From: an archaeon | Lineage (GTDB): Archaea > Nanobdellota > Nanobdellia > SCGC-AAA011-G17 > GW2011-AR17 | Length of the DNA stretch: 64,000 nucleotides | Direction of reading: 5' to 3' | Assembly (NCBI GenBank): GCA_043814545.1 | Contig: JBDRJY010000007.1 | Coordinates: 6,819 to 70,818, forward strand | Part shown: positions 1,549 through 46,190 of the stretch, piece by piece | How the letters are laid out: every line of letters begins with the position of its first letter | How positions within the stretch are numbered: position 1 is the first letter of the stretch | The notes under the pieces: model-generated | What the model was told of the DNA's origin: nothing | What the model saw: only the letters and a program-made list of their open reading frames with translations | Databases searched by the model: none | Position numbers and translations under genes: made by a program

Positions 1549-1595
1549 ATGTAAGGATTAAAGAACTAACAGTTTTTAAAGTTTATGTTAGTATA

Positions 1596-13427: not shown

Positions 13428-15674
13428 TTAAGGTAAAGAATACCCTGAGCTAAATATTGGCACTGTTTCAGATTGATAGGTGTATAACACAGAGATAGCA
13501 TAGTTTTTACCACCATACCTTCTATCATCCATTTCAACAGAACTCCAATCAGATAAACTCTCATCAATATTCCCAGAGATATAATAAGTCGTAGGATAAG
13601 CTCGATACCTGCTACAACTTGAACCAGCATCAACTGTACAATGATTTTCAGGGTCAGAAACTTCGTGGCAAGAATTGTCACGATTAACCAACCAAGAATT
13701 AGTGTCAAGTAAAGCATATGCCCAAGCATCAACTATTGAATAATCAGCTTCTAAATAAGCTGCAAATTTCTTTGAAACTTTTTTAGAATGATAAGTGTTA
13801 GATACTAGACTACCATGCATGCCTGATAAAGTGTGAAGACCTGCAAACACACTGCCACTATCACTGGTAGTTGTATACCTTTGCCTTCCATAATCACCTT
13901 GACAATATACGACAGAATTACTTAAACAAGAAAATTGTGCCAGATATTCTAAATCTTTTTCACCTAACTGCGATAAAAAGTAATCGTATAAAGCCGAAGA
14001 TTTATTTTCATAAAGGTAAATTGGTTGATCTTCTGCCCATACTGAACCTAAATAACCGTGACCAAATAAAAATAATAAATCAACATCATCAGCATAATCG
14101 TACGAATCTTCAACAAACCTATTTTTGTAAGATAAATACTTATCATAGTCAGGCCAATAATCCTTAAACTCATCACGAAATTCCTTAGCTGCTGTTTCAA
14201 ACAAATCTTCATCAGTCGAATAATACACTGCAAACTTTGCACCAGCTACGTCTCCAGGGAGCGGCTCACCGGATTGAGGAGGCTTTGTTGTTGATACTGC
14301 GCCTGAAAACTTACACGTACCATGAACACAAACGCCACCGTCATCATCATAATCAAAACAATGTTCATCAATTACACAAGGAAACTTACCATGTCCTAAA
14401 GATTTGTCAACGTAATACATTGGAGTTAAAGAAGTCGAAGTAACTACTGGCGAATATGCGACAAGGTTACCGTCTTTAACTAATGTACCATGACAAGTTA
14501 CTGTCGGCAACAAAAGTTCTTGTGATTGAAAATATGTAGATTCACAATTAGTTACATAAATATTATGCGACTCACCTGCTTCATAAGCCATAACTTCAGT
14601 AATTTCTTTTTTTAATTTTTCAACATTTTTTAACAGAACCTCTTCCTTTTTTTCCGTTGAAAGCACCCAGTTACGTAAGCTTACGCCTGTAACTTCTCCT
14701 GTAAGAGAATTAACTTCAACTTGAATTAAAGAATTTGATACTTGCCTGCCACCAACCAAACGATAAAAACCCGCAGTTTGAAGCACAAAAAAACTGCCTT
14801 CATCAGTTACATCTTTAGTATAAATTATTGCAGCAGTTTGACGTTGATCTAATTGCGTTTGCAAATCTAATTTGTTTGATTGTAAAAATTCTTCTGCTGT
14901 TTGCCAAACTTCATTTTCTTGTAAAGGTTCTAAACTTCCTTCCCTACTAGCTAAAGAAGATCTTACTGCCAACAATTCTTCATCATCAGTTTCATTCGGA
15001 GCAAAATAAACAAAAGATGCGTCAAGATTACCTTCGTTATCTAGCATTACACCAATTTTACTTTTATCTTCTAAAGTTTTTATTTCTTTTACACCAAACG
15101 CTGAAGCCAATTCAACCATTTCTTTTTCAGTTTCTAATCTTGCCGTCGATGACAAGGTAATAAGAACATTATCATCACTATTTAAAATTTCTACCAAATC
15201 TTCTTCAAAACCGGAATAAAATTCAACTTTAGGCGATTCATCTTCAAAATTAAGTTTAGCTAAATTTTCAATTAGAAATAATTTAAGTTTATTAAAAAAC
15301 CCATGAGGCTCAATTCCAATTTGACTATTTATGTATAACCTCTGTAACATTAAACCTTGATTTTCAGTTGACAAAAAATCAGTTAAATCTTTTTCAGCAA
15401 CTGTTAAAGTAAAATCTATGTCTTTAGTATTAATAAAATTAATTTTATCATCTTCAAAAATAAATTGTAAATTTAAACCACAACCTTCAACAACAATTTC
15501 TACTTGCATCCCATCTAAAAAAAAGTTTAAAGGTTGTATATGAGTCAACAATTGTTGATTTTCCATAATCAAACTTTGCGTTTCATCTGCCAAATCATCA
15601 CATGTTGCGGATACGGTAAAAGAAAACAGAATTAAACATACAATAAACAAAATTAAATTTCTTTTTACATTCAT
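13428..15674 (-). CDS. secreted protein (748 aa), last gene of a surface-protein operon. C-terminal part has a His-Gly ... Ser-Cys pair reminiscent of clan CD cysteine peptidases
   Basis: Signal MNVKRNLILFIVCLILFSFTVSA. Overlaps the upstream gene by 4 nt. Contains the segments LLFLFGHGYLGSVW and AQFSCLSNS. The peptidase assignment is speculative. Confidence 0.5.
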   Translation of the reverse strand: MNVKRNLILFIVCLILFSFTVSATCDDLADETQSLIMENQQLLTHIQPLNFFLDGMQVEIVVEGCGLNLQFIFEDDKINFINTKDIDFTLTVAEKDLTDFLSTENQGLMLQRLYINSQIGIEPHGFFNKLKLFLIENLAKLNFEDESPKVEFYSGFEEDLVEILNSDDNVLITLSSTARLETEKEMVELASAFGVKEIKTLEDKSKIGVMLDNEGNLDASFVYFAPNETDDEELLAVRSSLASREGSLEPLQENEVWQTAEEFLQSNKLDLQTQLDQRQTAAIIYTKDVTDEGSFFVLQTAGFYRLVGGRQVSNSLIQVEVNSLTGEVTGVSLRNWVLSTEKKEEVLLKNVEKLKKEITEVMAYEAGESHNIYVTNCESTYFQSQELLLPTVTCHGTLVKDGNLVAYSPVVTSTSLTPMYYVDKSLGHGKFPCVIDEHCFDYDDDGGVCVHGTCKFSGAVSTTKPPQSGEPLPGDVAGAKFAVYYSTDEDLFETAAKEFRDEFKDYWPDYDKYLSYKNRFVEDSYDYADDVDLLFLFGHGYLGSVWAEDQPIYLYENKSSALYDYFLSQLGEKDLEYLAQFSCLSNSVVYCQGDYGRQRYTTTSDSGSVFAGLHTLSGMHGSLVSNTYHSKKVSKKFAAYLEADYSIVDAWAYALLDTNSWLVNRDNSCHEVSDPENHCTVDAGSSCSRYRAYPTTYYISGNIDESLSDWSSVEMDDRRYGGKNYAISVLYTYQSETVPIFSSGYSLP

Positions 15675-18600
15675 TTTTTCTTTACCAGATCAGACGTTTT
15701 CTTAAACGAAGATTCCAATTGTTGGTCTAACTTAGAAGGTTTAAACTCTTGTTTCTTAGCAGTAAACAATTTTTGTGGATTCACAGGCGTAAGTTTTCGC
15801 TTCGTGTTAAATGTTTGAGACTTTTGTTTCTTTTTATAATATATGTAACCTAAATAAACTAATGCTAATAACAAAATCAGGAAAACTAAAATATAAAACC
15901 AAGGTAAAGCAAAACCTTCTTCACAATCTTCAGGACAATTGTTTTCAGTTTCACCATAAGAAGAATCACACCTTTCATTCGGACACAAAGGCATACTATC
16001 AGTTGAATCATCTAAACCATCAGAATCTGAATCCACTTTATACGCACTCGTCCCAATAGAACTTTCATACTTATCACTCAAACCGTCACCGTCAGAATCT
16101 TTGTCAATATCACCAACACCTGAACACGAAGGACATGATGAACCGCCACAATCAACACCGTCTTCGTTACCGTTTCGTAAACCATCATTACATGAAACAC
16201 TTTCACAAGGTTCACAAATAGAACCGCCACAATCAATCTCTTCTTCATCCTGGTTCATAACTGTATCATAACAAGTTGGAAATAAATCGTCAGTAACTTG
16301 ACAATTTTCGTCGTCATTATCCACATAACCGTCACAATCATTATCCAAACCGTCGTTGCAAACTTCTGGGAAAGATTCAATATCATCTTCACAATCACTC
16401 CACGAACCGTTAACACAGAATTGTATACCAGCAACACAAATACCTACGTCAACGCCACAAGTTTGATTCATTCCTTCAGAACAACCACAATTTTCATCAA
16501 CTTCGCCATCACAATCATTGTCTACATTATCACAAACTTCATCACTCCCACCACTGTAAGCAGAACCCGAACAGATTGACCATAAACCATTATCACAATA
16601 TTGTACACCCGACGAACACGCACCAACATCAGTGCCACAGTTTTTAGTTTCGCCAATTGTACAAACACAACCTTCATCAGTTGACCCATCACAATCATCA
16701 TCTAAAGTGTTACAATATTCAGTTTCAGCATAAACAGCACCTTCACAATCACCCCAACCACTATTACTACAAGTTTCAACACCGTACAAACATATGCCTA
16801 TATCAGAATCACCGCATTGTTGCGTATCCTCGTCGGTACAAGCACAACCTTCCTGATCTACACAGTTAGGGTCAGTACAATCAAAGTAACCGTCACAGTC
16901 GTTGTCAAGACCGTCGTTACAGGTTAACTCTTGTTCTTCAGTAGCTTCACAAGTTTCAGCACAATGGTCTTGGTCGTAAGGATCACCAGTCCGGCCACAA
17001 ACAGTATAATCACAATAACTTTCACTAATCCATTTATAATTGTTACACCATTCACCAGCATAAGTATCACAAGTATTTTGCGAACAAACATCAGTACCAC
17101 AATCATAATCTTTGCTACCACAATTCAAACAATAATCTTCAGTTGTCCAACCGTTACTATCACAATATAAATTTTGACCTACATCACACGAACCTTCAAC
17201 ACAACTTTCATAATCAGCATCAACACCACCACAGTTTTGTTCATAATAAGCATAAACCCATTCGCCAAAGCTACAATACGAATTAGATTCAGTGTCACAA
17301 TATCCAGCCAAACATTCACCATACCCAGAACAATCATCATAATCATAAAGTGAACAAGTGTCGCAATAATCAGTCGAGTCCCAACCGCCGTTATGGCACC
17401 ACATATCAGAAGCAACATCACAAGCATTTTCAACACAACCTGACGAGTTAGCAGGATCTTCAGTTATAGATTCACAATATGTATCATCTTCGTCGCAAAG
17501 AACTTGACAATCCGAATCTTGCGCACCGCAAACATGACAATAGTTGTCAGAAACTTGGTTACCTAAATCATCGCACCAAGTGTTATCTTCCAAGTTACAT
17601 ACACCAGGAGTACAAGCACCAAGACAATCAGAATCTTCAGCATCAGTATCACCGTCGCAATCATTATCAATGTTATCTTCACAAGTGCCAAAAGTTTCTT
17701 TTTCAGCGCAAACTAAAAAATCGCCGGAATTATATTTGAAACAATCAAAACCTTCACCGCAAACCCATGAAGTGTACGAAGTATATTCACCAGCATCTTC
17801 ACTTTCAACAGTGTACGAACATTTCACATCTTCATCATACATCTCCACTGTACAAAACGTTTTATTATAACATTCGTTGTTAACCGGTGGCACATCACCG
17901 TCACCGCAAACGTAAAGATTCTTTGTACAAACACCACCTTCATCAATTTGTTCATCACAATCATTATCTTTTCCGTCGCAAATTTCTAAAGCGTAAGGAT
18001 TTATTGAAGGGTAAGCATCATCACAATCTAACTGTTCATAGGTACACTCAGAATGTTCGAACGCACCAAACCCGTCGTTATCTTCATCATAACAACCGCC
18101 TAAAGGATAAACTTGCATCTTCATAAAAATATTAAAATCAGAAGGTTGCACAGCGTCAAAACTAATTGACTTCACTGGTAATGAACGAGTAAATTCAAAC
18201 CCTGAAAACGAATCATAAAATCCGCCTTCTTCAGTATCACCGTTAACAATAATTTTGTTACCTGTTGAATCATCTTCACTTGACAATGCAAACTGATACT
18301 GGCAACCGTTATACAACTCGACAGTAAAATCTCTTATTTTGATTGAACTAAAAGTTTCATAATCAGCATTGTTATAACAATGTTTATCTTTATCATTTTG
18401 TGTAACACAACAATCAGGACGACAATAACCAGCAAATTCAATATGTCTTCTTAACGGTTTATTAATTTCATACTCATAATGATAATAATTTCCACCTGAA
18501 GGATACAACCCAATTTCAGTAAACGGCGTTGCATCATTTATTGCACATTCAGACTCAGGATCAACCCCTTCTTTTGAACAAACACCTTCACTAATAATCC

Positions 18601-19606
18601 AACCTTCATTAAAATCTACCAAGTTATCTGGGACTTCAAGCTTAATTGTTTCAATATCAGAATTATCATTTTCAATTGAAGAAATTTCTCTAACTTCTGA
18701 ATCAGTATACGAATAAATGTTCCAATCGTAAACATCAGAATCGTAATCTAAAGTATACTGTGCATTTGCGCCAACCTGACCATAACATTGGTAAACACCG
18801 TCACCGTCAAGATCTTCACAGGTAGGATCAATTTCATCAATGCGCGGACACGAAATATCTTCAGGCACACAGTCAAGGTCTAACGAATCAATACAATCAT
18901 TCTCGTCCCCTAACTCTTTTCCAGGATAACAACAATCTTGGTCACAAACAGGAAGCACGCCAGGTGTATCACTTTCAGAAATAGGATAACAACCATTATC
19001 AGGAAGATTATTTACTTGAACATCAGCGCAATCAGGATCATAATTACCAGGACAATACGTGTTACATACACCATCTTCGTCAATGTTACACCCCATTGGC
19101 ACGTCACAAAAGATAAATTCCAAATCACTACCGGCTTGAATTTCGGCGTCGTCAGGGTTAGTCATGAAATGTTGCCAGTCACCGCAAGTATGATACTCAC
19201 ACTCTTCCTCGTCGATAATTATCGCATAATCTCCAAAAGAATCAACTTCCGCATGTAAGGAAAAATAATCTTCGTCTTCAAGGTAAGAACTATCTATTTC
19301 GACCCATTCACCATTTTCATATTTGGCAAACAAAACATCACGTTTATCTTCGCACGGCACTCGATCTGTTTCATACATGTAAGGATAAGCTGCAGGCAAA
19401 ATTATTGTAAGACCATTCGGCACTTCGTCAGCTCCTGAAAAACGAAAAACATTACCAATAACAAGGTTACAATCATTATAACCAGACAAAACACAGTCAG
19501 GAATTTCTTGGATAGTATAACCTTCATTATCCGCAGTTGCATTTAAAGAAAATATTAGTAAACATAAAATTAAAAGTAAAAAAAGTTTAGCACGCAAAAC
19601 ATACAC
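15671..19606 (-). CDS. giant Cys-rich surface protein (1311 aa) with MopE-like CxDxxDNDCDGxxDE repeats and a C-terminal TM anchor
   Basis: Signal peptide, then repeats such as CNDGLDNDCDGYFDC, CNTLDDDCDGSTDEGC, CDNVDNDCDGEVDENC and CEDNIDNDCDGDTDAED. These match the Pfam 'putative metal-binding motif' (MopE-type). The C-terminus is LPWFYILVFLILLLALVYLGYIYYKKK, a TM helix plus a basic tail. Confidence 0.65.
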   Translation of the reverse strand: MYVLRAKLFLLLILCLLIFSLNATADNEGYTIQEIPDCVLSGYNDCNLVIGNVFRFSGADEVPNGLTIILPAAYPYMYETDRVPCEDKRDVLFAKYENGEWVEIDSSYLEDEDYFSLHAEVDSFGDYAIIIDEEECEYHTCGDWQHFMTNPDDAEIQAGSDLEFIFCDVPMGCNIDEDGVCNTYCPGNYDPDCADVQVNNLPDNGCYPISESDTPGVLPVCDQDCCYPGKELGDENDCIDSLDLDCVPEDISCPRIDEIDPTCEDLDGDGVYQCYGQVGANAQYTLDYDSDVYDWNIYSYTDSEVREISSIENDNSDIETIKLEVPDNLVDFNEGWIISEGVCSKEGVDPESECAINDATPFTEIGLYPSGGNYYHYEYEINKPLRRHIEFAGYCRPDCCVTQNDKDKHCYNNADYETFSSIKIRDFTVELYNGCQYQFALSSEDDSTGNKIIVNGDTEEGGFYDSFSGFEFTRSLPVKSISFDAVQPSDFNIFMKMQVYPLGGCYDEDNDGFGAFEHSECTYEQLDCDDAYPSINPYALEICDGKDNDCDEQIDEGGVCTKNLYVCGDGDVPPVNNECYNKTFCTVEMYDEDVKCSYTVESEDAGEYTSYTSWVCGEGFDCFKYNSGDFLVCAEKETFGTCEDNIDNDCDGDTDAEDSDCLGACTPGVCNLEDNTWCDDLGNQVSDNYCHVCGAQDSDCQVLCDEDDTYCESITEDPANSSGCVENACDVASDMWCHNGGWDSTDYCDTCSLYDYDDCSGYGECLAGYCDTESNSYCSFGEWVYAYYEQNCGGVDADYESCVEGSCDVGQNLYCDSNGWTTEDYCLNCGSKDYDCGTDVCSQNTCDTYAGEWCNNYKWISESYCDYTVCGRTGDPYDQDHCAETCEATEEQELTCNDGLDNDCDGYFDCTDPNCVDQEGCACTDEDTQQCGDSDIGICLYGVETCSNSGWGDCEGAVYAETEYCNTLDDDCDGSTDEGCVCTIGETKNCGTDVGACSSGVQYCDNGLWSICSGSAYSGGSDEVCDNVDNDCDGEVDENCGCSEGMNQTCGVDVGICVAGIQFCVNGSWSDCEDDIESFPEVCNDGLDNDCDGYVDNDDENCQVTDDLFPTCYDTVMNQDEEEIDCGGSICEPCESVSCNDGLRNGNEDGVDCGGSSCPSCSGVGDIDKDSDGDGLSDKYESSIGTSAYKVDSDSDGLDDSTDSMPLCPNERCDSSYGETENNCPEDCEEGFALPWFYILVFLILLLALVYLGYIYYKKKQKSQTFNTKRKLTPVNPQKLFTAKKQEFKPSKLDQQLESSFKKTSDLVKKK

Positions 19607-20189
19607 CTCCAGCTTTCATGCTTTGCCCGACTGCAATTGACCAAGACATCCCGCAAGTGTCGGTATACACGCCAGATTCCTGAGCTATACAACTACTGTC
19701 CACTTCAACAAACACACAACAATTTTGTACAAGTTCTATTTGCGCATAAAATTCAGTTAAAGACTGAGTGTTATCATTTTTGGAAATTGTAAGCTTATAA
19801 TCCATTGTAGACGAAATTAAAGTTTCATCATTACTCATGATTGTCGTAACACTGCTTAACGTACCAGTTGTTATGTCCAAATCTTCAAAAGAATCTAAAT
19901 TGATACAATCAAAAATATTATCGCGTATGTATTCCGAAACTAAAGATTCGTAACTTGCCACATGGTAAGAACCTAAATTAGTAACAGCATCTCTTAAAGT
20001 TAGTTTTAAACAAGATTCAACATGTGCGTTAACTTCCTCTACTTGTGCAGAAAAACCTAACCCAGAAATAATTTCAGTTTCAACAATATCCGAAACTAGT
20101 CCTGATCTAAACACAAAAAATAAAATGACTAACAGGATTAAAACTATGCCTAATATGATAAAAATAGTAGCTTGACCTCTTTTGTTCAT
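19587..20189 (-). CDS. small surface protein with prepilin-like (class III) signal peptide. First gene of the operon
   Basis: MNKRGQATIFIILGIVLILLVILFFVF: a short basic N-terminus ending in KRG, then Q at +1 and an uninterrupted hydrophobic helix. This fits an archaeal type IV pilin-like signal. Overlaps the next gene by 20 nt. Confidence 0.5.
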   Translation of the reverse strand: MNKRGQATIFIILGIVLILLVILFFVFRSGLVSDIVETEIISGLGFSAQVEEVNAHVESCLKLTLRDAVTNLGSYHVASYESLVSEYIRDNIFDCINLDSFEDLDITTGTLSSVTTIMSNDETLISSTMDYKLTISKNDNTQSLTEFYAQIELVQNCCVFVEVDSSCIAQESGVYTDTCGMSWSIAVGQSMKAGGVCFAC

Positions 20190-20227
20190 ACAAAAAAATT
20201 AATAGGGAATAGTATATATAAAATCTT

Positions 20228-20250
20228 CGGATTTTTGGCTTGCAACCAAT
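20228..20250 (+). promoter_or_regulatory. weak variant motif copy (CGGATTTTTGGCTTGCAACCAAT)
   Basis: Between the FMN-binding gene stop (20261) and the start of the pilin-like operon (20189). The T-run is conserved but the stem is degenerate. Confidence 0.3.
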
Positions 20251-20260
20251 ATAAAAATTA

Positions 20261-20785
20261 TTAATCCTCTTCTAAATATGTACAAGGATAAGTTTCTACC
20301 ATCTTTCTTACACCGTCTGTTACAGCTCTTGACGAAATCGTAGCACCAGTCACTGCATCTATTTTTCCACCATATTTTTTTAGCTCAAGCTCATCTTTAC
20401 TTTTCCCAACAAACTGCTCCAAAAAATAATCTTTTTCAATATTTGAACCTATGCCGGGAGTTTCCTGATGAGTTATAACATCAATCCCTGTAATTTTATT
20501 TTCCAAATCAATGCCTGCTAAAACAACAATCAGTGATGAATAACCAGGAGTTTCAACTTTTAACACTCTTCCAACTAACTGTTCATTTTTATCATAAGCA
20601 TTATAATATTTTTCTTCTTTTAAGAATGAGTCAGCAATTATTACTTTATTTAGCGATTCTTGAATTACAAGTTGCTTTTGCATCTCTATTAAGGGAGCAG
20701 TATAATCGTTAGTTAAAGCCAAAACAAACCCAGCCACAGTAGCCACTGTTGTCAAAGTTATTATAGACTTAATTAATTCACGCAT
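20261..20785 (-). CDS. FMN-binding domain protein (RnfG/NqrC-like), membrane anchored
   Basis: N-terminal TM helix. C-terminal IDAVTGATISSRAV matches the FMN_bind TGAT(I/x)(S/T)S flavin-attachment motif. Confidence 0.6.
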   Translation of the reverse strand: MRELIKSIITLTTVATVAGFVLALTNDYTAPLIEMQKQLVIQESLNKVIIADSFLKEEKYYNAYDKNEQLVGRVLKVETPGYSSLIVVLAGIDLENKITGIDVITHQETPGIGSNIEKDYFLEQFVGKSKDELELKKYGGKIDAVTGATISSRAVTDGVRKMVETYPCTYLEED

Positions 20786-20825: not shown

Positions 20826-20849
20826 GGTTTTTGCCTTACGGCTTAAAAG
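20826..20849 (+). promoter_or_regulatory. motif copy 2: GGTTTTTGCCTTACGGCTTAAAAG
   Basis: 24 nt 3' of the tfb stop. A TTTTATATTTTT TATA-like box starts 6 nt beyond it, about 25 nt before the ATG at 20785. Confidence 0.55.
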
Positions 20850-23636: not shown

Positions 23637-23712
23637 TACAAACCTCTACTTTATATATTGTGTTAAAAATATTTAAACTTATCGTTAATATACGTTTAAG
23701 TCTAGATAAACT

Positions 23713-23735
23713 GGTTTTTGCCTTCGGCTTTTCCG
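23713..23735 (+). promoter_or_regulatory. motif copy 3: GGTTTTTGCCTTCGGCTTTTCCG
   Basis: In the divergent ParA(-)/LAGLIDADG(+) intergenic region. Confidence 0.55.
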
Positions 23736-29993: not shown

Positions 29994-30818
29994 CTACAAT
30001 AACTTCTGTTTTTTAACATAAAGAACATAAAATGTTCTAAACAATCCTAACAGTATTACAAAGATTAATACAAAAATAATACCTAGCACTATACCAACTA
30101 TAGACTGTCCCACTAAAGAAACTAATAAACTAAAATAAAAAAATAAAAATAATAAAGTTAAAAATAAGAACAGTAAAAATAATGGAAACAATTTAAAAAA
30201 TTTCTTAAAACTTATTTGAACAAGTTTACCAAAATTAGATAAGTCAAGTTTTGTCAAAACAGCATAACTCAAAAACATTACATACAAAACAAAAGCTAAC
30301 AAGATTAAACCTAAAACTAGTTTAGAAAAAAAGTAAGGGACTTCTTCAAACAATACCGATGTTATCATGTCAAGAACCATTTTCAGTAACAAAGTTAATA
30401 TTAAAATTCCTGGAAAACTTAAAGCAAAAAACTTATACATGTGCTCAGAGTTGTAAAACTTTGAACTTTTAATTAAGTTAAAACTAAAACCTTGCGAAAG
30501 ACACCATAAAATAAAAAAACCTATTGGTATTATGATATAAAAAAACACTTGGATTTTAGCAGTGATAGGGTATAACTGTTCTAACAAAGTTGTAAACTGT
30601 AACTGTGCCATTGTTGCGTTTTCAACGAAAAGATTTTGTACTGTACTAATCTGGTCTTGAAACAACTGTATCTGGACAAAATACGTTTTTAATTTAAACC
30701 TAGAATATAAAACTAGTAAAGAAAGGAAAAAAACAAAGGCTAAATCTAAGACTAAAAACTTCCACCATTTATTAAAATACAATTCAAAGGATTTTTTTAT
30801 CAAAGATTTCATTTTCAA
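29994..30818 (-). CDS. polytopic membrane protein. Last gene of the giant-protein operon
   Basis: Multiple hydrophobic helices. Its start overlaps the stop of the 2745-aa gene by 4 nt. Confidence 0.5.
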   Translation of the reverse strand: MKMKSLIKKSFELYFNKWWKFLVLDLAFVFFLSLLVLYSRFKLKTYFVQIQLFQDQISTVQNLFVENATMAQLQFTTLLEQLYPITAKIQVFFYIIIPIGFFILWCLSQGFSFNLIKSSKFYNSEHMYKFFALSFPGILILTLLLKMVLDMITSVLFEEVPYFFSKLVLGLILLAFVLYVMFLSYAVLTKLDLSNFGKLVQISFKKFFKLFPLFLLFLFLTLLFLFFYFSLLVSLVGQSIVGIVLGIIFVLIFVILLGLFRTFYVLYVKKQKLL

Positions 30819-33800
30819 GCATTAGTACAATAAAATTTCGTAGTCCCTTCAATAAGAGCAAGTTCACAATTTCCAATATCACATATATCATTAGCGCAAG
30901 CTTGAGCAAGCATAGTCGAACCACCATAAACAGATTCAAAGATCAAACTATTATAACTATAACAATAATCTAATCCAAAGTCATAACATGAAAAACATCC
31001 GGAAGCACCTTGTTCAGTTGTACCTAAAAAACAACCATCAATCGCCACACATTTGTCATAGGATGTCCTTGTCCCATCATTACAATCTTCACAAGAAGAA
31101 CAATCTATTTCACCTACACCTGTCAATTGTTCAACATCATAAACATTTAAACCAGCATCCTGGCACGAAGCTTCATCACCTTCTTCTAAATAAAAATAAT
31201 CGCAGCCTAAATTACAAGGATCTTCCTTACAAGTCAACTCAACACTGGAATAAAGCGTCCCTAAATCTGAATAAGTAAAATCAAATACTTTAGTATTATA
31301 ATCATTACAATAATTAATCTCGCTACAATCGCCACACTCCGGACCAGTTCCCCCTTGATACAAAACACAATCGCCGTAATCCTTCATACATATATCATAA
31401 ATTGTTGCAATAGAAGTATCTGCTTGCCAGTATTCGTAAAGTGAATTATAATTTTCACAAACTTTTTCTTCACAAACATTATTTAATTCATCCCAAATAC
31501 ATTCTCCAACACCACATGCGTCAAGCCCACATTCTTTCTGTGCAAAAGATTCATCTAAAACATACCATTCTTCATAATCATAAATACCGTCGTAAGCATA
31601 AGTTGAATAATCAACACAAACGTCAATAGCGTTACAATCTTTGCAATACGATTTACCACCCTCATCACCTAAAAAACATTGACCTCGGTTATAATAATCT
31701 TGATGACACTCGTCAAACGCTTCATTATCTCCTGAAAAACAATCTTTGCCACAATCAGTACAATCGTATTTAGTAACTGAAACACATTCACCACCAAAAT
31801 CTAAACTAGAATCTTCACGCCACGAACAAGTGCCAAACCCGCACGAATCCATTTCACATTCTTTCTGTGCAAAATATTCACCGTCGTACTTATTATCATA
31901 CGCATAATTATAAGTTTCACAATCAGTAATAGCATCGCATGAACGACAATAAGCATTATCGTTATCAAAAGGAGATACAATCAAAACACATTCACCATTT
32001 TCATAATCACGGCTATGACATAAGTCAAAAGCGTTTTCATTTCCCTTAACACAATCATTACACTCTTCACAACTTAAAGCAGTCTTACAACTACCACCAG
32101 CGTTTAAAGTATCATCCTCTTCCCAATAACAAGGACCTTTACTACAACTATCCAATTCACACTCTTTTTTGTAAAAATGTTCATTATCAGTCGCAACACC
32201 GTAATAAGTATAATGTGACATAGAATAACTTTCACATGAAGTTATACCTTGTGAATAAGTCCAGCCCCAATTAACAAGACCAAACGTCCAACTATCACCC
32301 AAACAACTTTTACATTCAGGTTCGCCATTAGCATCATCGCCAAGGAAACAAGCAGTACCTTCAGTCGTACCGTCGTCAGAAAGGTAAACCGTGTCAAGGT
32401 CCGTCGCATAATAACCTACTTGATGACATTTGTCAAATATTGCATTTGCATCTAAAGCAGTGTTAGCATAATCACAAGTTTCATATTGTATTGTAGTAAT
32501 CTCAGGCACACAGTTATGATTTTCGCAAGTGTAAGCTATACCACCATAATAAGCAACATCCAAATCTTCATAATAAGTACCACAATCAGCAGTCGTGCTA
32601 CAATAGTCAGGATAAACATCTTCCTCTAAAGTATTTTCAAGATAACAATAACTGTTTTCACCTTCAGAAAGACATTCATAACCACTAGGACAACCTGTCG
32701 ATGGATAGTCGCAACTTATCCTAGAATCAATAGGGTAACAAGAGTGATACTTACATTCATATTCAATATCTTCATTATTATATACTGTACACTCAGAATC
32801 AACATCACACCAAGTTACAGCAACTCCTGTAAGTTCAAACGTTTGACAATAACCTGCAACACAAACATAATCAGTATTATCAGAACAAAGATTCTTTTCG
32901 TCGCATTCAATCAAACAAACTCCGCTTAAACAATCAGAACCGTCCACACACGTGTTGCCATAGTCACATTTAGGGAACTGTGTTTGTGCATTAGCGTTAA
33001 CATCTTTAGTAGGATTATAATCATAACATAAACCACTAATACAAATTTGGTTGGCAGGATCAGGACAAGGATTAGCATCGTCACAATCAGCAAAACAATA
33101 ACCATCTAAACATTCGCCACCAAGACAATATCCATCATCACATCTTGGTACAGTTATCGAACCAAGCTCTTCAGTAAAACTACCAATATCATCAGTCTTC
33201 AAACAATAATCAGATTTGATACATTCGTAGTCAATGGTAGGACAATCTTCATCTTTATCACACTCAAGCCAACAATCATCACCGTAACAAAGAGCATCTT
33301 GTTTTACACAACAAAGTTCAGGGTCAGAATTACATAACTTGGGCGAACACGAAGCAGAAACATCACACGAACTATAATATTCCCAAATACCATTTTGACA
33401 TTTGCCAACAGTAAGAGACACACCAGTAAGAGACACACCATAATAATCACTAATAATATCTAAGCACGCATAATCTTGATTATCATCAGAACAATCGCTG
33501 CCATATTCAAAATATCCTACATCAACTTGAACAACTTCTTCTTCGACAACAGTTGTAGTAGTTGTAGTAATATCATCTGCAGCTTCAAGCGCAGCTTCTT
33601 CTACGTCAGACAAAGGTTCTAAACCTTCATCTTCACCCATCAGAGTTTGCGTATCAGTTGTCTTCATACCACCCATTGTTTTGAACAACTGTCCGATTTT
33701 GTAAAGAGACTGCAATTCTACATCTGGAGATAAAGTACGCTCATACAAATCATTAAAGGCATTAACCAACTCCACCATTTCATTCATTGTTGTAGCTGTT

Positions 33801-36800
33801 CCAACTGCTTCTTCAAGAGTATCTAACATGTTCACGCTATCGTCTAAATCTAAAAGATCGTCAATGCCTAATTCATCTTTAATTTCTTCAATGCCAATAG
33901 CTTCAAGTTCAGTTGAAACAGTTTCGTACCTTTGAGTATCCTGAATAGTAATTGTTCTTGAATCAAGCCAACATCCGCCTAAGCTACGACCTTCACTATC
34001 CTCACCACAAGTTCCAACATACAACCAGTCGTTAGGGTTAGTACCTGACCCTGGATTATTAACTGCACATATTCTAATTAAACCAGTTGTTAACATGTCA
34101 ACATCATAAGGAGTAGTAAAACTTAACAAACTCGGGCTTGTGCGCGGAGCGCTAGGAACACAATCAGATTCTGAATCAATTTCGCGGCTTAACTCGTCTT
34201 GCACTAACAAGTCGTTCAAGTAATCTAAACTGAACGCAGTGCTAACCGAACCAAAACCACAATGTTCAACACCGTTTATCCTGACACAAATTTCATCATA
34301 ACCTTCAGTCGTTGCACAATCAACAGTATAATCTGCCATCTCGCCTTTCGCAATTGTCGACGAACGTTTACCACAAGTTTCAGTCACGTAGTAAGGCCAT
34401 AAAGTTCCAGTAGAACTTTTCAGGTAAACACTATACGTAGCATCTTCATCTTCGCCAGCATAAATATGATAATAAGATTGGTACGCTTCTTGTTGTTGAG
34501 TTTCAGCATAAGGTTTTACAGTTAAAAGAGCTGTGAACTGTGGCGGACTTTCAGGCTCAGTCAACTGCGTAAACAAGTCACCGAACTCAGGCATCTTACC
34601 AAAAATCGCTTGCTTACAAATCAAAGCACCTATCTCTTCAGTTGACCTTCCTTGGAAAGCTGAAAACGCTGTCTGAGCATAATCTTGTGTAAAATATTCA
34701 ATCGAGTTAGCAGCATTTTCAAAACTTGTCTGGAAAGTTAAATATTCGCCACCGCCTTCCTGTTGACCAAACACTTTTTCTGATAACAGTTCTAGGATAC
34801 CACCGTTAGCGTTAAAAATATTTATCAGTTCCCTAGCAATCATTTCACAAACGAAAACTGACCTAATCTTATCACAAATTCCGACAGACGTACCTTCAAA
34901 CTTAGCAGCTTCAAGACATTCAACATACCCTTCCATGAAAGACTGTATGTTTTGTAAACCTGCCAATACGCCAGTAAGACATACAGGCACCATATCTCCA
35001 CTGCCCCAAGGTAAAACTATCGAACCAATCAAACCTGTTTCAACTACGTTATTCACGTTCCATCTTCCACCTAAGTTAAACCGAGAAGTAGGACACATTA
35101 CAGGATCACATACATTAAACATAAGTTTACAATCGCCAGGGTTCATTACATCGTAACATGTCATTGACGCGCCAGGATCAATTGATTTTGCTTTACCTGA
35201 ACTAATCACAAAACTTGTACCTTCAATTGAAACAATTTCACCATCACTTTTACCTTCCATTTTTCTTATCGCTCGTTCAACTGACGACCTTAACCGATTA
35301 TACGTGCTATGTTCTAACTCTAACTGGCTACTATGCATAATTAAAACATCATCACCTGTACACAACCGACCGTCAGCGCCAACGTTCCACAATTCTAAAG
35401 TGTCAGGCGACCCGTCTTTATAGAAATCTAAGATTTTCACAAACTCGCCATTATTAGTTGGCACACAATATGGTTTATCATCACCATAACGCTCAATAGG
35501 AGGTATACCTGCATAATCAGTACGCGTTGTAAAACTTGAAAACGCTGTAACTTGCGCAACATAAAGCTTGTTAGTATCTTTATCAATGTAAACTTCGCCT
35601 TGCTCAGTCGCAACAACTGCAGTCAAATCATTTTCATAACTAGAAGCAATACGATCCATATCCTTAGATATTTCTTCAAGCTCAGCACCAGTAGCAGTTT
35701 TATTTTTATTTTCAAGATAAGTCTGATATTCTTCAACATCTAAAGGCGTTAAAACTAAAACTCCTGATAAAGTGTCAGCATAAATATTATTATCACTTTC
35801 TTTTTTGTAAACTGAAGTTAAAACATCAACAGTATCACTATTAATATACCTGAACTCAGACGGTGTAACTTCAGGTTCAGTTAACGCTTGATTATACAAG
35901 TTAGTAAAAATTCGATTTTGTTCGTCTTCATGTTCACTAAAATAATTTTTCCATTCTTTTGATTTAGTTGCATTAACAGCAGTGTTACAAGCGTCTTGCT
36001 TTTCCTTATTAGATAACGTAAAACCTGCAAGGTTAGTATTGGTTTCAGCTTGAAGATTATATTCTTGCGTGCCTGATAACGAATTATAACTTCTAGTTTT
36101 TGACATACCTGTCCAGTAAGCATGATTACGCAAAGCTTCCAAGTCATGGAACTCACTCGCACCTAAATACTCAACACACGTGTTCATGTCATCATAACCA
36201 GTTGTAAGATTCTTGTACCATTCTTGCGACAAATAATTATCGTCAGTAAACTGGTTGTTCACATCTGATACAACAGTTTTCGTGTCAGCTATCTGTTGTG
36301 TTATCTCGGACGAATGTGTAGCAATACAATCATCAAACGTTTGATGTAATTTACCTGAACCAGAGTTAGCTTGACAGTAAGCATACCATCCACTTTGACC
36401 ATCCTGGCCACGCATTACAAAACTTCTAGCTTGCGAAGTTGAAAATCCAGATAAGAATGAATTTTTCACTGTTAAGAAACCAAACGTTGCAAGGCAAACA
36501 GTTTTCCAAGTCTTAACCAATTTTTCTAAAGTATCAATAGTATTTTGCAACTTCTCAATTTGCTGCTGAGTTTTATTTATTTTTTGATCAATATTTTTCG
36601 GTGTTAAATTAAACGCAGCTTTGTCGACAGTAATATGCATTGAAAAGTTTGACCTGCTAATCAATTCACGACCAGTACCAGGTATGATTGAAACATGCGC
36701 ACGTTTATACAACTCAACATCATCAACGCGTACATTATAACCGTCAACAGATTCAGTATCACTTAAACTAATTGTTTTTGTTGAAAACGTTGGACTTACT

Positions 36801-39052: not shown

Positions 39053-41049
39053 GTTAGTTCAGGATAAGTTATACCTGTCCCCTCCTCAAGTTTACTATAA
39101 ACATCTGAAAGCTCGTCGTACGTACTAGGCGTACCATAACTGTTAACATAAAAAGTTATGGTGGATGCAGACGACAGTTCATCTCGACCCAAGGTCCATA
39201 AGTATTCTCCCCCGCCACTTACTAAAGAATCAAGAGTCATTGACGGTATTTCCACAGTGGTACATTCTTCATCAGTTCCAAAAAACGAAAACAAACTTTT
39301 CACAGGGTTAGTAACACAATGTTCAACTTCTTGTTCTTCAATAACAAAATCAAAAACTGCGTCAGTTACAATGTAAGCATTAATATCATAATCGCCAGAG
39401 ATTAAGGTTATGGTATTAAACCCCTCCATAGGATACGCTACTGAAGTTGAATAATCTAACTCTTCATTGTTTAACTGAATACTAATTGACTCACTACTTA
39501 AAGGATCTCTTATAGAACCAGACTCGTCAACAACTTTTACTTTAACGTTAAATTCATAATACCTTTCTAAAATAACATAAGCTTCATCTTCATCAATACT
39601 AGAAAACTGCGTTTTACCAGGATGCAAACCTTCTTTTTCAGCTAAGATAAAACCGTTGTAACATGCCGGGAAATCAGCAGTGATACCAACACCTGTAGCA
39701 GTGCTAGAAGTTTCACCAATTTCGCAAACTTGCGTAATACATTTGTACGATACAGTCGCATCGTTAACAGTTTCTAACAAACCATCTTCTCTTGGCGCAA
39801 CTACGTAAACAGTTGCGGGCCAGAATGCGTTTTCGCATATAGGCGTTTCAGGATCAACCACATCTAACAAACCAAGTTCGTTTTCTCGAGGCTGGTTATT
39901 ATCTATGATAACCATATACGCAAACTGAAAAACGTAATCAGACGTTTCATCATATAAGGAAATTAATACAGGATATTTAATATCATAAACAAAATTATAA
40001 GTGTTAAGACAGAAAAACGCTTTAAGATATGAAGGACCTTCACCGCCAGGCATTTCAGGTATGACAGGTTCTGATAACATCAAGTCACCTTCCGAAGGAA
40101 ACACGTCTAAGTATAAAGGCCACGATGTAAAATATTCTAAGTTAGCTTTCACGTTATACCTGTTATAATCTAAAACGTCCCATTCATAATATACACTGTC
40201 AGAGTCAGACATATCATAATCAGTTCCTACTAGTTTCACTTGTGCAACGTTCGCATCTAAATAATTTTTTAAATCTTCTTTAACACCAGTCTTGCTCCAC
40301 GTATCAACTTCGCACGAAACTTCTAAGTCTGATAAAGGCAGTTCTTCATTGATTGCGAAAAGGTCGATGGTACGTTCTTCAAGGAAAAACTCATTATCAC
40401 TATTTGCGATAATCTCAGCAGCCAAATCATGCAAGTCACCTAACGGAACATTCATTGAATAAAAAAACGTGTCAAAGTTATATCTGAAAGAATCTAAGGT
40501 TACTCTTAACGGATATTCGATTGTAAACAAAACTTGATCATCTTGAATATCAACTTCAGTTTCTATAGGACCAGCTGTCATGTTATAAGTTTCAAACATA
40601 TCAAAATCATTGGTACACTTTCCTAAGTTTTGGTTTAAGTAATAAACTAAATGCTCTTGCATTTCTTCAATTGTAGGCGCTGCAGACTTTTGTACACCGT
40701 TAGCTGTTTCATAAAACCAATACGCTACATTATAATCCCCACCTTCAAAAACTTCTAAGTAATTAGAAAACATGTTCGCATCAGTTTGCGGAATAGTATC
40801 ACTCGGTATTAAAATATAACCGCCCTGCGATCCTAAAAGTTCTAAAGCGTTTTGGGTAGTTTCTTCAATACATGCTAAAATAAAATCATTCGGTTCTTGC
40901 ACTTCTTCAGGAACAATTAAAGAAGCTTGCCTTTGCCGTTCCCAATCCGAAAGAAAAAGAACATCTTTATACACAACTACAAAAACTGCGAAGATAAGAA
41001 TAATTAATCCTAATATGACTAATAAAGTCACCTGCCCTCTTTTTTTCAT
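39049..41049 (-). CDS. surface protein (666 aa) with prepilin-like (class III) signal peptide
   Basis: MKKRGQVTLLVILGLIILIFAVFVVVY: a KRG|Q junction followed by a hydrophobic helix. Nearly identical in pattern to the N-terminus of 19587..20189. Confidence 0.55.
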   Translation of the reverse strand: MKKRGQVTLLVILGLIILIFAVFVVVYKDVLFLSDWERQRQASLIVPEEVQEPNDFILACIEETTQNALELLGSQGGYILIPSDTIPQTDANMFSNYLEVFEGGDYNVAYWFYETANGVQKSAAPTIEEMQEHLVYYLNQNLGKCTNDFDMFETYNMTAGPIETEVDIQDDQVLFTIEYPLRVTLDSFRYNFDTFFYSMNVPLGDLHDLAAEIIANSDNEFFLEERTIDLFAINEELPLSDLEVSCEVDTWSKTGVKEDLKNYLDANVAQVKLVGTDYDMSDSDSVYYEWDVLDYNRYNVKANLEYFTSWPLYLDVFPSEGDLMLSEPVIPEMPGGEGPSYLKAFFCLNTYNFVYDIKYPVLISLYDETSDYVFQFAYMVIIDNNQPRENELGLLDVVDPETPICENAFWPATVYVVAPREDGLLETVNDATVSYKCITQVCEIGETSSTATGVGITADFPACYNGFILAEKEGLHPGKTQFSSIDEDEAYVILERYYEFNVKVKVVDESGSIRDPLSSESISIQLNNEELDYSTSVAYPMEGFNTITLISGDYDINAYIVTDAVFDFVIEEQEVEHCVTNPVKSLFSFFGTDEECTTVEIPSMTLDSLVSGGGEYLWTLGRDELSSASTITFYVNSYGTPSTYDELSDVYSKLEEGTGITYPELT

Positions 41050-41106: not shown

Positions 41107-41129
41107 TGGTTTTTGCCTTCGGCTGGAAT
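41107..41129 (+). promoter_or_regulatory. motif copy 4: GGTTTTTGCCTTCGGCTGGAATG
   Basis: Abuts the 3' end of tRNA-Val(-), 58-80 nt upstream of the 39049..41049 start. Confidence 0.55.
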
Positions 41130-46159: not shown

Positions 46160-46190
46160 ACTTATAAATAAGCGTTTCATACCGCATTTC

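What the first reader, a model, noticed from the sequence alone, without database searches (positions are those of the whole stretch)
13428..20250. Second, similarly organised surface-protein operon: a 200-aa prepilin-signal protein, a 1311-aa MopE-repeat Cys-rich protein and a 748-aa secreted protein
19587..20189 (MNKRGQATIFIILGIVLILLV) overlaps 15671..19606 by 20 nt, which in turn overlaps 13428..15674 by 4 nt. The first gene's N-terminus is almost superimposable on that of 39049..41049 (M[KN]KRGQ[AV]T[IL][FL][IV]ILG[IL][IV]L). The two operons therefore look like paralogous modules, each preceded by a motif copy. Repetition of the architecture (small pilin-like leader, then giant Cys-rich protein, then further secreted protein) argues for a functional system and against random surface-protein clustering.
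Basis: seen in the sequence. Interest (0 to 1): 0.6.

Follow-up and report, generated by a model that had tools for sequence, protein, structure and literature searches.

The report
Pilin-like leader plus giant surface-protein cassette
In this DPANN (Woesearchaeota-type) archaeon, a small membrane protein with a pilin-type N-terminus is encoded directly in front of a giant cysteine-rich surface protein, and this two-gene cassette recurs across the lineage as an undescribed and probably dedicated way of building the cell surface.

Summary
The three overlapping minus-strand genes exist as described: 200 aa, 1311 aa and 748 aa. The 200-aa protein is a true paralogue of the N-terminal 200 residues of the 666-aa protein at 39049-41049 (hhalign 99.4%, E 5e-21).

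The rest of the "paralogous operon" idea fails. The two giant proteins are unrelated to each other, and so are the two third genes.

The leader domain has an invariant M-x-K-R-G-Q-x-T-x-F...G start and no Pfam or NCBIfam model. It occurs in at least 1443 protein clusters. In 80 Woesearchaeota/Nanoarchaeota loci:
- 78 of 81 leaders are followed on the same strand.
- 67 of 78 are followed with a gap of 10 nt or less.
- 54 of 78 are followed by a gene of at least 700 aa.
- Leader subtype predicts the giant's family in 43 of 44 cases.

Operon A's leader + MopE-giant core sits at a conserved S8e-TFB position. The DUF6345 gene and the FMN-binding gene are lineage-specific additions.

I read it as a class-III-signal (prepilin-like) adaptor paired with a giant surface adhesin. 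Cleavage and physical interaction are inferred, not shown.

The parts
20214..20223 (-). TATA-box-like TTTATATATA about 25-35 nt upstream of the leader ATG; probable operon promoter, implying a leaderless or very short 5' UTR
   Evidence: Read directly from the sequence. The function is inferred from archaeal promoter geometry and was not tested.
20225..20241 (-). Degenerate copy (AAGCCAAAAATCCGAAG) of the window's intergenic motif
   Evidence: The canonical form AGCCG(T)AAGGCAAAAACC occurs at 1595-1611, 20826-20842, 23712-23728, 41107-41123 and 62195-62208, with a shorter variant (AGCCAAAGGCAAAACC) at 58990-59002, all on the minus strand.
19587..20189 (-). Leader gene, 200 aa. It has a class-III-signal-like N-terminus (MNKRG|QATIFIILG...), a 21-residue hydrophobic helix, a conserved alpha/beta ectodomain (aa 32-152) and a Cys-rich C-terminal mini-domain ending GGxCxAC.
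   Evidence: ORF. Homology to the N-terminal 200 aa of the 660-aa family. Family size (1443 cluster representatives). Alignment of 21 short forms with invariant Q6, Y80, C158, C167, G188, C197, A199, C200. AF2 model, pLDDT 86.6.
19605..19610 (-). Shine-Dalgarno-like GGAGGT inside the leader's last codons, 7 nt before the in-frame TTG at 19597 of the giant gene
   Evidence: Sequence read. Translational coupling is inferred.
15671..19606 (-). Giant A, 1311 aa. In order: signal peptide; N-terminal domain (aa ~25-250) conserved in relatives; tandem Cys-rich repeats including 4 MopE / acidic double-disulfide repeats; TSP3-type Ca-binding repeats (aa ~1170-1200); TM helix (aa ~1229-1259); ~50-aa basic cytoplasmic tail with a conserved end motif.
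   Evidence: Pfam PF11617 3.5e-14 and TSP3_bac. NCBIfam acid_disulf_rpt and weak PGF_pre_PGF. Composition and TM. Homologues downstream of short leaders in L008 (1.6e-116), L024, L010, L009, L026 and L007. Conserved C-terminal tails.
13428..15674 (-). Third gene, 748 aa: secreted DUF6345 protein overlapping the giant's stop codon by 4 nt. It is a lineage-specific addition to the cassette.
   Evidence: Pfam PF19872 7.4e-16 at aa 523-660. The only close relative is 87% identical, with the same 4-nt junction. No homologue in 80 related loci or in a metagenome scan.
20261..20785 (-). FMN_bind-domain membrane protein gene lying between TFB and the leader; absent at this position in the syntenic loci L008 and L009
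   Evidence: Pfam PF04205 1.6e-19. Synteny comparison.
39049..41049 (-). Leader of operon B, 666 aa: the same N-terminal domain as the 200-aa protein, followed by a middle domain and Ig-like beta-sandwich domains
   Evidence: At least 139 full-length homologues in Woesearchaeota/Nanoarchaeota, all 'hypothetical', none with a Pfam domain. AF2 model pLDDT 81.9. The only fold matches are to Gram-positive pilin/adhesin beta-sandwich domains, at low TM-score.
30815..39052 (-). Giant B, 2745 aa, a member of the Woesearchaeota/Pacearchaeota giant-protein family. This copy has a ~900-aa Cys-rich C-terminal region in place of a murein-hydrolase domain.
   Evidence: Homologues in L004, L005, L038, L041 and others. 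SLT or DUF2272+Glucosaminidase domains in homologues, none in the window copy. Literature: PMC8204110.
29994..30818 (-). Third gene of operon B, 274 aa, a 7-TM membrane protein, conserved after giant B in some relatives
   Evidence: TM prediction. Homologues in L038 (6e-17) and L004 (4e-8).
41107..41123 (-). Canonical intergenic motif copy between tRNA-Val (41129-41201) and the operon B promoter

Best explanation
Operon A is one copy of a two-gene cassette typical of Woesearchaeota-type DPANN archaea.

Gene 1, the 'leader', encodes a protein whose N-terminus (M-x-K-R-G|Q-x-T-x-F-I-I-L-G) has the hallmarks of an archaeal class III (prepilin-type) signal. These are a basic residue at -2, Gly at -1, Gln at +1, and then a 21-residue hydrophobic helix. 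I propose that a prepilin peptidase cleaves it after Gly5. The retained helix would then keep the small disulfide-stabilised alpha/beta ectodomain at the membrane surface, alone or in a short pilin-like bundle.

Gene 2 is translated from the same message; its start overlaps the leader's stop, and an SD-like site lies inside the leader's last codons. It encodes a giant exported protein. Here that is a 1311-aa, very acidic, disulfide- and Ca-binding-repeat stalk, held by a C-terminal TM helix with a conserved cytoplasmic tail.

I propose that the leader ectodomain is the dedicated partner of its giant, acting as a docking, assembly or presentation factor. Together they would form an adhesive surface structure used for attachment to a host cell or substrate. 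The DUF6345 protein is a lineage-specific accessory, co-translated with the pair.

Shown: the gene structure, the leader homology, the family's breadth, the tight leader-giant linkage and co-variation, and the exported/anchored topology features. Inferred: signal cleavage, physical interaction, and the adhesion role.
For: - Homology beyond the TM helix between the 200-aa leader and the 660-aa family: hhalign 99.4%, E 4.7e-21.
- Exhaustive HMMER search: 1443 cluster representatives at E<=1e-3, with length classes of about 160, 200, 250-280, 660-740 and 800-1100 aa.
- N-terminal conservation in 81 leaders: K(-3) 90%, K/R(-2) 95%, G(-1) 97%, Q(+1) 100%, T(+3) 91%, F(+5) 95%, G(+9) 92%, with a basic residue at +23. 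This is partly biased by the search pattern, but the same residues are conserved in alignments A1 and A4.
- This pattern matches the published rule that positions -2 (positive), -1 and +1 define archaeal SPase III sites and that Glu+5 is dispensable (PMC3387779).
- Linkage: 78/81 leaders have a same-strand downstream gene. Of these, 67/78 have a gap <=10 nt (background 43%, p=1e-13), 54/78 have a downstream gene >=700 aa (background 7.5%, p=3e-34), and 67/78 downstream proteins have a hydrophobic N-terminus.
- Co-variation: the leaders' mature parts form one homology cluster (75/79), while the downstream proteins form more than 30 unrelated clusters. The nearest leader relative has a giant of the same family in 43/44 cases.
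- The A-type pair is conserved in L007-L010, L024 and L026; L008 and L009 are syntenic with the window (S8e-TFB-leader-giant).
- A closer relative keeps the leader/giant and giant/DUF6345 junctions while both flanks differ.
- Conserved Cys pairs in the ectodomain (C60/C95 here; C60/C145 in the 666-aa protein) fit an extracellular location.
- An SD-like GGAGGT sits 7 nt before TTG 19597.
Against: - No Pfam or NCBIfam pilin, archaellin or class-III-signal model matches either leader (E<=0.1 and <=1).
- Foldseek found no type IV pilin or archaellin fold for the 200-aa model (best E 7e-3, TM<0.3).
- The model has a break between the TM helix (4-28) and the next helix (32-72), rather than one long pilin alpha-1 helix.
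- No prepilin peptidase, PilB/FlaI ATPase or PilC/FlaJ gene lies in the 64-kb window. A crude T2SS-E signature regex found none in 1.2 Mb of leader-flanking DNA.
- Interaction between leader and giant is untested.
- ORF starts were taken as the first possible start codon, which can exaggerate overlaps.
Confidence: 0.45

Rival explanations
1. The leader is an uncleaved type II (signal-anchor) membrane protein. The conserved KRGQxTxF motif would serve membrane insertion or helix packing, not peptidase recognition. The protein would still act as a membrane-bound chaperone or dock for the co-translated giant.
For: No pilin profile or fold was found. There is a flexible break after the TM helix in both AF2 models. 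No linked peptidase or pilus machinery was found. A basic residue at +23 flanks a standard-length TM segment.
Against: Plain signal anchors rarely keep an invariant G-Q and fixed T/F/G positions across more than 1400 divergent clusters. The -2/-1/+1 pattern is exactly the archaeal SPase III site.
Confidence: 0.27
2. The leaders are true type IV pilins that polymerise into filaments. The giant would be carried as a tip or lateral adhesin, analogous to minor pilin/PilY1 or modular pilins.
For: The highly conserved hydrophobic N-terminal helix with variable globular parts is the classic pilin pattern. The C-terminal half of the 666-aa leader resembles adhesin/pilin stalk beta-sandwiches. Modular pilins with adhesion modules are known (PMC8179133, listed).
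Against: There is only one leader per cassette and no neighbouring ATPase or platform genes. The ectodomain is not a pilin or archaellin fold. Leaders of up to 1200 aa are unlikely to be major filament subunits. Giant A has its own TM anchor.
Confidence: 0.12
3. The leader is a pseudopilin-like piston or recognition component of an export route dedicated to very large proteins. It would act transiently in secretion of the giant rather than staying bound to it.
For: There is a strict one-to-one leader/giant linkage across more than 30 unrelated cargo families. Cargoes are unusually large, which may require help beyond Sec.
Against: No ATPase or channel gene is linked. The giants carry ordinary Sec-type N-terminal signals.
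Confidence: 0.08
4. There is no functional coupling. These are simply surface-protein genes that cluster and are co-expressed, and the leader similarity reflects a common membrane-anchor module.
For: Genomes are compact and 43% of same-strand neighbours already have gaps <=10 nt. The giants and third genes of operons A and B are unrelated.
Against: The enrichments over background are very strong (p=1e-13 and 3e-34). Leader subtype predicts giant family in 43/44 cases. The pair persists while the flanks change.
Confidence: 0.08

Closest known systems
Archaeal class III signal peptide / type IV pilin-like proteins (substrates of PibD, FlaK or EppA; archaellins and pilins)
   Same: Very short basic n-region, K/R at -2, G at -1, Q at +1 (as in RGQ-type archaellin/pilin signals, from my own knowledge), immediately followed by a ~20-residue hydrophobic helix. 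The conserved N-terminus contrasts with variable globular parts (rule from PMC3387779).
   Different: No profile match to the pilin/archaellin families. The ectodomain fold is neither a pilin alpha/beta roll nor an archaellin beta-sandwich. No linked peptidase, ATPase or platform genes. Each leader is instead paired with a giant gene.
[quoted passage not shown]
   Same: It is a precedent for large non-pilin surface proteins that use a prepilin-type N-terminus for surface localisation rather than for building a classical pilus.
   Different: Bindosome proteins are solute-binding proteins and depend on the linked basABC/basEF genes. Here the domains are unrelated, no Bas-like genes are linked, and the partner is a giant adhesin-like protein.
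Giant extracellular murein-lytic-transglycosylase proteins of Woesearchaeota/Pacearchaeota (fam00969; Castelle et al. 2021, PMC8204110)
   Same: Giant B (30815-39052) is a homologue of these proteins; L005's copy carries SLT and L004's carries DUF2272+Glucosaminidase. They are interpreted as host-attachment or cell-wall-degrading surface proteins.
   Different: In the passages I read, the paper does not mention the upstream leader gene or the cassette rule. The window's giant B lacks any SLT domain. Giant A is not a member of this family at all.
MopE-type 'putative metal-binding motif' / acidic double-disulfide repeat proteins (Pfam PF11617, NCBIfam NF033662)
   Same: Giant A has 4-5 CxDGxDNDCDGxxDE repeats scoring above the Pfam cut-off and matches the NCBIfam repeat below its cut-off.
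   Different: The repeats occupy only part of a 1311-aa archaeal type I membrane protein that also has an N-terminal domain of its own and a conserved cytoplasmic tail. Nothing here indicates copper binding.
Minor pilin + giant tip adhesin pairs and modular pilins in bacteria (e.g. PilY1 with minor pilins; S. sanguinis PilB, PMC8179133)
   Same: A small pilin-type protein is genetically coupled to, or fused with, a large adhesive module. The 666-aa leader looks like a 'modular' version, with beta-sandwich stalk domains.
   Different: It is archaeal, with an unrelated sequence and fold. No pilus operon context was found and no filament has been demonstrated.

Membership tests
Archaeal class III signal peptide (prepilin-like) proteins | Short n-region with a positively charged residue at -2, Gly/Ala at -1 and a permitted residue at +1 | tested here: met
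   The sequence is MNK-R(-2)-G(-1)|Q(+1)ATIF. Across 81 family members, K/R at -2 is 95%, G at -1 is 97% and Q at +1 is 100%. The rule is quoted from PMC3387779.
Archaeal class III signal peptide (prepilin-like) proteins | Uninterrupted ~20-residue hydrophobic H-domain directly after the cleavage site | tested here: met
   Residues 7-27 are hydrophobic (mean Kyte-Doolittle 1.96). AF2 predicts a helix at 4-28. Family positions +2 to +22 are hydrophobic.
Archaeal class III signal peptide (prepilin-like) proteins | Match to curated pilin, archaellin or class-III-signal profiles | tested here: not met
   No Pfam hit at E<=0.1 and no relevant NCBIfam hit at E<=1 for the 200-aa or the 666-aa protein.
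Archaeal class III signal peptide (prepilin-like) proteins | Cleavage by an A24-family prepilin peptidase encoded in the genome | not testable with these tools
   No such gene is in the 64-kb window. The rest of the MAG could not be retrieved. Cleavage needs an experiment.
Type IV pilus / archaellum-type filament system | Pilin genes clustered with a PilB/FlaI-type ATPase and a PilC/FlaJ-type platform protein | tested here: not met
   None were found in the window by Pfam. The T2SS-E signature regex gave 0 hits in 1.2 Mb of 80 leader loci. That is a weak test, because the regex was written from memory.
Type IV pilus / archaellum-type filament system | Pilin or archaellin globular fold | tested here: not met
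Cu-binding_MopE repeat proteins (PF11617) | Repeat profile above the Pfam gathering score | tested here: met
   The 1311-aa protein scores 53.2 bits against a cut-off of 27, in 4 stretches. Five CxDGxDNDCD motifs were found by regex.
DUF6345 (PF19872) | Profile above the Pfam gathering score | tested here: met
   The 748-aa protein scores 58.7 bits against a cut-off of 26.9, at aa 523-660. NCBI also names it a DUF6345 domain-containing protein.
Woesearchaeota/Pacearchaeota giant SLT-domain proteins (fam00969) | Homology of giant B to the family core | tested here: met
   BLASTP against the SLT-bearing L005 protein gives E 3e-111 over aa 1180-1696, plus two further blocks. phmmer hits 11 loci.
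Woesearchaeota/Pacearchaeota giant SLT-domain proteins (fam00969) | Presence of a murein lytic transglycosylase domain | tested here: not met
   No SLT, DUF2272 or Glucosaminidase hit in the window's 2745-aa protein or in its aa 340-660 segment.
Woesearchaeota/Pacearchaeota giant SLT-domain proteins (fam00969) | Giant A (1311 aa) belongs to the same family as giant B | tested here: not met
   BLASTP E 0.55; hhalign probability 0.1%.
Leader + giant cassette (defined here) | Leader-domain gene directly followed on the same strand by a large gene encoding a protein with an N-terminal signal | tested here: met
   Both window operons meet this. In related loci: 78/81 same strand, 67/78 gap <=10 nt, 54/78 downstream >=700 aa.

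The most novel reading that the evidence does not exclude
Woesearchaeota may possess a previously undescribed surface-display or export pathway for giant proteins. In it, one conserved prepilin-like adaptor domain has co-diversified with dozens of unrelated giant cargo families. The domain forms at least 1443 clusters at 50% identity and has no Pfam or NCBIfam model. The cargoes include the murein-hydrolase-bearing giants thought to attack or attach to bacterial hosts. If so, the adaptor would be the key to how these ultrasmall archaea build their host-contact apparatus.
Probability: 0.3. Interest if true: 0.8.

Novelty: new variant of a known kind. Interest (0 to 1): 0.58.

Why it matters
Woesearchaeota and related DPANN archaea are uncultivated, ultrasmall and presumed to live attached to other cells. 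How they build their contact surface is unknown. Their giant extracellular proteins have been flagged as likely host-interaction factors, but as isolated genes.

This work shows that each giant gene is translationally coupled to a member of a single conserved family with a pilin-type N-terminus, and that the two co-vary. That gives a concrete, testable handle: a predicted cleavage site, a predicted binary interaction and a diagnostic N-terminal motif. The motif could be used to find surface-apparatus genes in any DPANN genome. It also defines a large protein family that currently has no curated model.

Tried and rejected
- Paralogy of the giants: BLASTP and profile-profile comparison show no homology between the 1311-aa and 2745-aa proteins. 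The 748-aa protein is also unrelated to giant B.
- DUF6345 gene as a conserved third member: rejected. There was no homologue in 80 related loci, only one 87% relative in the 5.8-billion-protein search, and nothing in a metagenome scan.
- Function of DUF6345: the PDB sequence search found nothing even at E<=10. One paper mentions the name without giving a function.
- Motif as an operon-specific signal: rejected, because it is a general intergenic element. Rfam has no family for it.
- Retrieving the rest of the 85-kb contig to look for pilus machinery: four look-ups found no record.
- Literature: no paper links Woesearchaeota with class III signals. The arCOG 'putative secretion system' papers describe other families, and I could not connect them to this one.

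Full report
**Source organism.** The window comes from a low-GC (about 33%) archaeal genome. It encodes TFB, TBP, S8e, S3Ae, S15, aRF1, MCM, Hjc and aIF proteins. Exact matches are annotated 'MAG: archaeon', and nearly all relatives are Woesearchaeota/Nanoarchaeota MAGs. I therefore treat it as a Woesearchaeota-type DPANN archaeon.

**Checking the observation.**
- The three minus-strand ORFs are at the stated coordinates: 19587-20189 (200 aa), 15671-19606 (1311 aa, GTG) and 13428-15674 (748 aa).
- The giant/third-gene junction is AAAAAATGAATG, a 4-nt ATGA overlap.
- At the leader/giant junction, the sequence GCTGGAGGTGTATGTTTTGCGTGCTAA contains GTG (19606) and TTG (19597) in the giant's frame. 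A GGAGGT site lies 7 nt before the TTG. A 77%-identical relative was called from the equivalent TTG. The overlap is therefore 20 or, more likely, 11 nt. Either way there is no room for a separate promoter.
- A TTTATATATA box lies 25-35 nt before the leader ATG.
- The 1311-aa protein has four MopE repeats above the Pfam threshold and a TSP3-type repeat, and NCBIfam acidic double-disulfide repeats. It has 115 Cys, 22% Asp+Glu, an N-terminal signal and a C-terminal TM helix followed by a basic tail.
- The 748-aa protein has a signal-like N-terminus and a DUF6345 domain.

**The leader is a true paralogue.** BLASTP between the 200-aa and 666-aa proteins aligns residues 1-74 (30% identity, E 3e-5), already beyond the hydrophobic helix. 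A profile of 35 members of the 666-aa family, compared with the 200-aa protein plus its 77% relative, gives hhalign probability 99.4%, E 4.7e-21 and 149 aligned columns. Residues 1-152 of the short protein correspond to 1-200 of the long one, and the short form lacks a ~46-residue QGGY-containing insert.

**The rest of the operons is not paralogous.** Giant A versus giant B gives BLASTP E 0.55 and hhalign probability 0.1%. The third genes differ in kind: a secreted 748-aa DUF6345 protein against a 274-aa protein with seven predicted TM segments. Both giants are acidic and Cys-rich, but with different repeat types.

**How wide the leader family is.**
- The word-indexed search found only three relatives of the 200-aa protein, but more than 139 full-length relatives of the 666-aa protein. 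All are 'hypothetical' and none has a Pfam domain.
- An exhaustive HMMER search with a short-form profile found 1443 cluster representatives at E<=1e-3. About 25 are full-length ~195-210-aa forms. Further size classes lie near 160, 250-280, 660-740 and 800-1100 aa.
- Short forms share Q6, Y80, C158, C167, G188 and a terminal GGxCxAC. C60 and C95 are nearly invariant.
- Pfam and NCBIfam have no model for the family.

**Structure.**
- The AF2 model of the 200-aa protein (pLDDT 86.6) shows a TM helix (4-28), a break, helices 32-72 and 80-95, a three-stranded sheet (105-152) and a small Cys-rich beta unit. Foldseek against the PDB gives nothing below E 7e-3 and no pilin.
- The 666-aa model (pLDDT 81.9) adds a middle domain and C-terminal beta-sandwiches. 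Their only matches are to Gram-positive pilin/adhesin stalk domains, at low TM-score.

**Gene context across genomes.** A scan of GTDB species genomes with the short-form alignment returned 80 loci, almost all Woesearchaeota/Nanoarchaeota, with several genomes contributing two or three loci. I called ORFs myself; starts are the first possible start codon, which can exaggerate overlaps.

| Measure | Leader genes | Background (other same-strand pairs) | p |
|---|---|---|---|
| Same-strand downstream gene | 78 of 81 | n/a | n/a |
| Gap <=10 nt | 67 of 78 | 43% | 1e-13 |
| Downstream gene >=700 aa | 54 of 78 | 7.5% | 3e-34 |
| Downstream product with hydrophobic N-terminus | 67 of 78 | n/a | n/a |

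The leaders' mature parts form essentially one homology cluster (75 of 79), whereas the downstream proteins fall into more than 30 unrelated clusters. The pairing is nevertheless specific:
- ~160-210-aa leaders go with MopE-type giants (7 cases, including the window).
- ~250-290-aa leaders go with a ~1230-aa family with 5% Cys (15 cases).
- ~655-716-aa leaders go with the giant B family (10 cases).
- ~635-aa leaders go with a ~1345-aa family (6 cases).
- The nearest leader relative has a giant of the same family in 43 of 44 cases.

**Operon A specifically.**
- Giant A has clear homologues downstream of short leaders in L008 (1.6e-116), L024, L010, L009, L026 and L007. They share the N-terminal domain, the repeats and the C-terminal anchor, and a conserved cytoplasmic end motif (...LEKSFKE..EL.KK).
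- In L008 and L009 the order is S8e - TFB - leader - giant. This is the same neighbourhood as in the window (S8e 21901-22281, TFB 20873-21796), except that the window has an FMN_bind gene inserted before the leader and the DUF6345 gene appended after the giant.
- The DUF6345 protein has no homologue in any of the 80 loci.
- A closely related strain keeps both junctions (leader/giant in L001; giant/DUF6345 with the same 4-nt overlap in L006) while its flanking genes differ on both sides.
- The conserved core of operon A is therefore two genes. The third gene is a recent, lineage-specific passenger.

**Operon B.** The trio of about 660 aa + 2200-2750 aa + ~250-aa membrane protein is conserved, for example in L004 (downstream of S15-S3Ae, as in the window) and L005. 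Its giant belongs to the family that Castelle et al. 2021 highlighted as large extracellular murein-lytic-transglycosylase proteins of Woesearchaeota/Pacearchaeota. L005's copy has an SLT domain and L004's has DUF2272 plus glucosaminidase. The window's copy has none of these and instead carries a ~900-aa Cys-rich C-terminal region.

**Is the leader a prepilin?**
- In favour: the N-terminus is M-x-K-R-G-Q-x-T-x-F-I-I-L-G, with K/R at -2, G at -1 and Q at +1, followed by 21 hydrophobic residues and then a basic residue. It is far more conserved than a generic anchor would be. The published rule for archaeal SPase III substrates stresses exactly -2 (positive), -1 and +1, and notes that Glu+5 is dispensable (PMC3387779). 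Class III signals also occur on non-pilin surface proteins, such as the Sulfolobus bindosome (same source).
- Against: there is no profile match, no pilin fold, and no peptidase, ATPase or platform gene in the window. A signature regex found none in 1.2 Mb of leader-flanking DNA, which is a weak test.
- I could not retrieve the rest of the contig.

**Most likely mechanism.** I favour, at about 45%, a cassette in which the leader is a class-III-signal, membrane-retained adaptor whose ectodomain partners with the co-translated giant to build an adhesive surface structure. The main rival (about 27%) keeps the partnership but drops the cleavage. The remainder is divided as follows:
- True pilus filaments with a tip adhesin: 12%.
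- A pseudopilin-like export helper: 8%.
- Mere co-location: 8%.

The gene structure, homology, linkage and co-variation are shown. The processing, the contact between the two proteins and the adhesion role are inferred.

**Novelty.** The giants of operon B and the MopE repeats are known kinds. The leader family, its size, and the rule that it is coupled to and co-diversifies with giant surface-protein genes were not found in the literature searches I ran. The family also has no curated model. I rate it a new variant of a known kind (class III signal or pilin-like surface proteins), of moderate-to-good interest for DPANN cell biology.

Noticed in passing
window 1595-1611, 20826-20842, 23712-23728, 41107-41123, 58990-59002, 62195-62208 (all minus strand): Recurrent intergenic motif AGCCG(T)AAGGCAAAAACC: a mini-hairpin GCC-GAA-GGC followed by an A-run. 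The 58990-59002 copy is a shorter variant (AGCCAAAGGCAAAACC). It usually lies 6-50 nt after the 3' end of a gene or tRNA and before the next TATA box. It may be a 3'-end or terminator-type element. It matches no Rfam family.
   Followed up: partly
window 1970-3460 (-): The aRF1 (peptide chain release factor) gene carries an intein: Hint/Intein_splicing domains at aa ~177-311, between eRF1 domains 1 and 2.
   Followed up: no
window 23793-24416 (+) and 24418-24532 (+): A stand-alone LAGLIDADG-domain ORF is followed immediately by a 115-nt tRNA match. Rfam finds this tRNA but ARAGORN does not, so it probably contains an intron. A second long tRNA lies at 48292-48399 (-).
   Followed up: no
window 41261-44632 (-): A 1123-aa protein with 69 N-x-S/T sequons, a PGF_pre_PGF domain (5.7e-28) and a C-terminal TM helix, so probably an S-layer-like glycoprotein. 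Its N-terminus MNKRGIKRGILFLF resembles the leader start but lacks Gln+1.
   Followed up: partly
window 6367-10308 (-): A 1313-aa secreted protein with Laminin_G_3 and Big_7 domains and 53 glycosylation sequons. It is another large surface glycoprotein, and no leader gene precedes it.
   Followed up: no
L004 11977-19020; L005 11988-18554; window 30815-39052: The giant B family keeps three conserved core blocks but swaps accessory domains: SLT in L005, DUF2272 + glucosaminidase in L004, and a ~900-aa Cys-rich region in the window. This resembles a variable effector module on a constant scaffold.
   Followed up: partly
window 15671-15830 (C-terminal tail of the 1311-aa protein); L008, L009, L010, L024, L026: The cytoplasmic tail of A-type giants ends in a conserved motif (...LE(K/S)SFK(E/K)..(E/D)L.KK). 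This hints at a conserved intracellular binding partner for a surface protein.
   Followed up: no
L004 5102-9945; window ~15840-15900: Cys-rich MopE-like proteins next to operon B in L004 all end with E(E/K)GF(F/W) plus a short hydrophobic tail. Giant A has CEEGFALPWFYILVF at the start of its TM helix. This may be a C-terminal sorting or anchoring signal.
   Followed up: no
window 13428-15674, aa 532-583 of the product: The DUF6345 region contains LLFLFGH(539)G and AQFSC(583), 44 residues apart, each after a hydrophobic strand-like stretch. From memory this resembles the His/Cys dyad spacing of clan CD (caspase/legumain-type) peptidases. It was not tested.
   Followed up: no
window 45882-46997 (+): A 371-aa ORF partly overlaps the S15 gene on the opposite strand. 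Its product contains HTHNDGSSPSDFD, which reads like a JAMM/MPN metalloprotease motif (HxHx7SxxD). This was seen only by eye in the translation.
   Followed up: no
window 11352-11969 (-); L010 17247-17849, L024 11707-12321, L026 13013-13618: A ~200-aa very acidic protein with an N-terminal signal and a C-terminal TM helix recurs a few genes away from A-type cassettes in several genomes. It may be another component of the conserved surface-gene neighbourhood.
   Followed up: no
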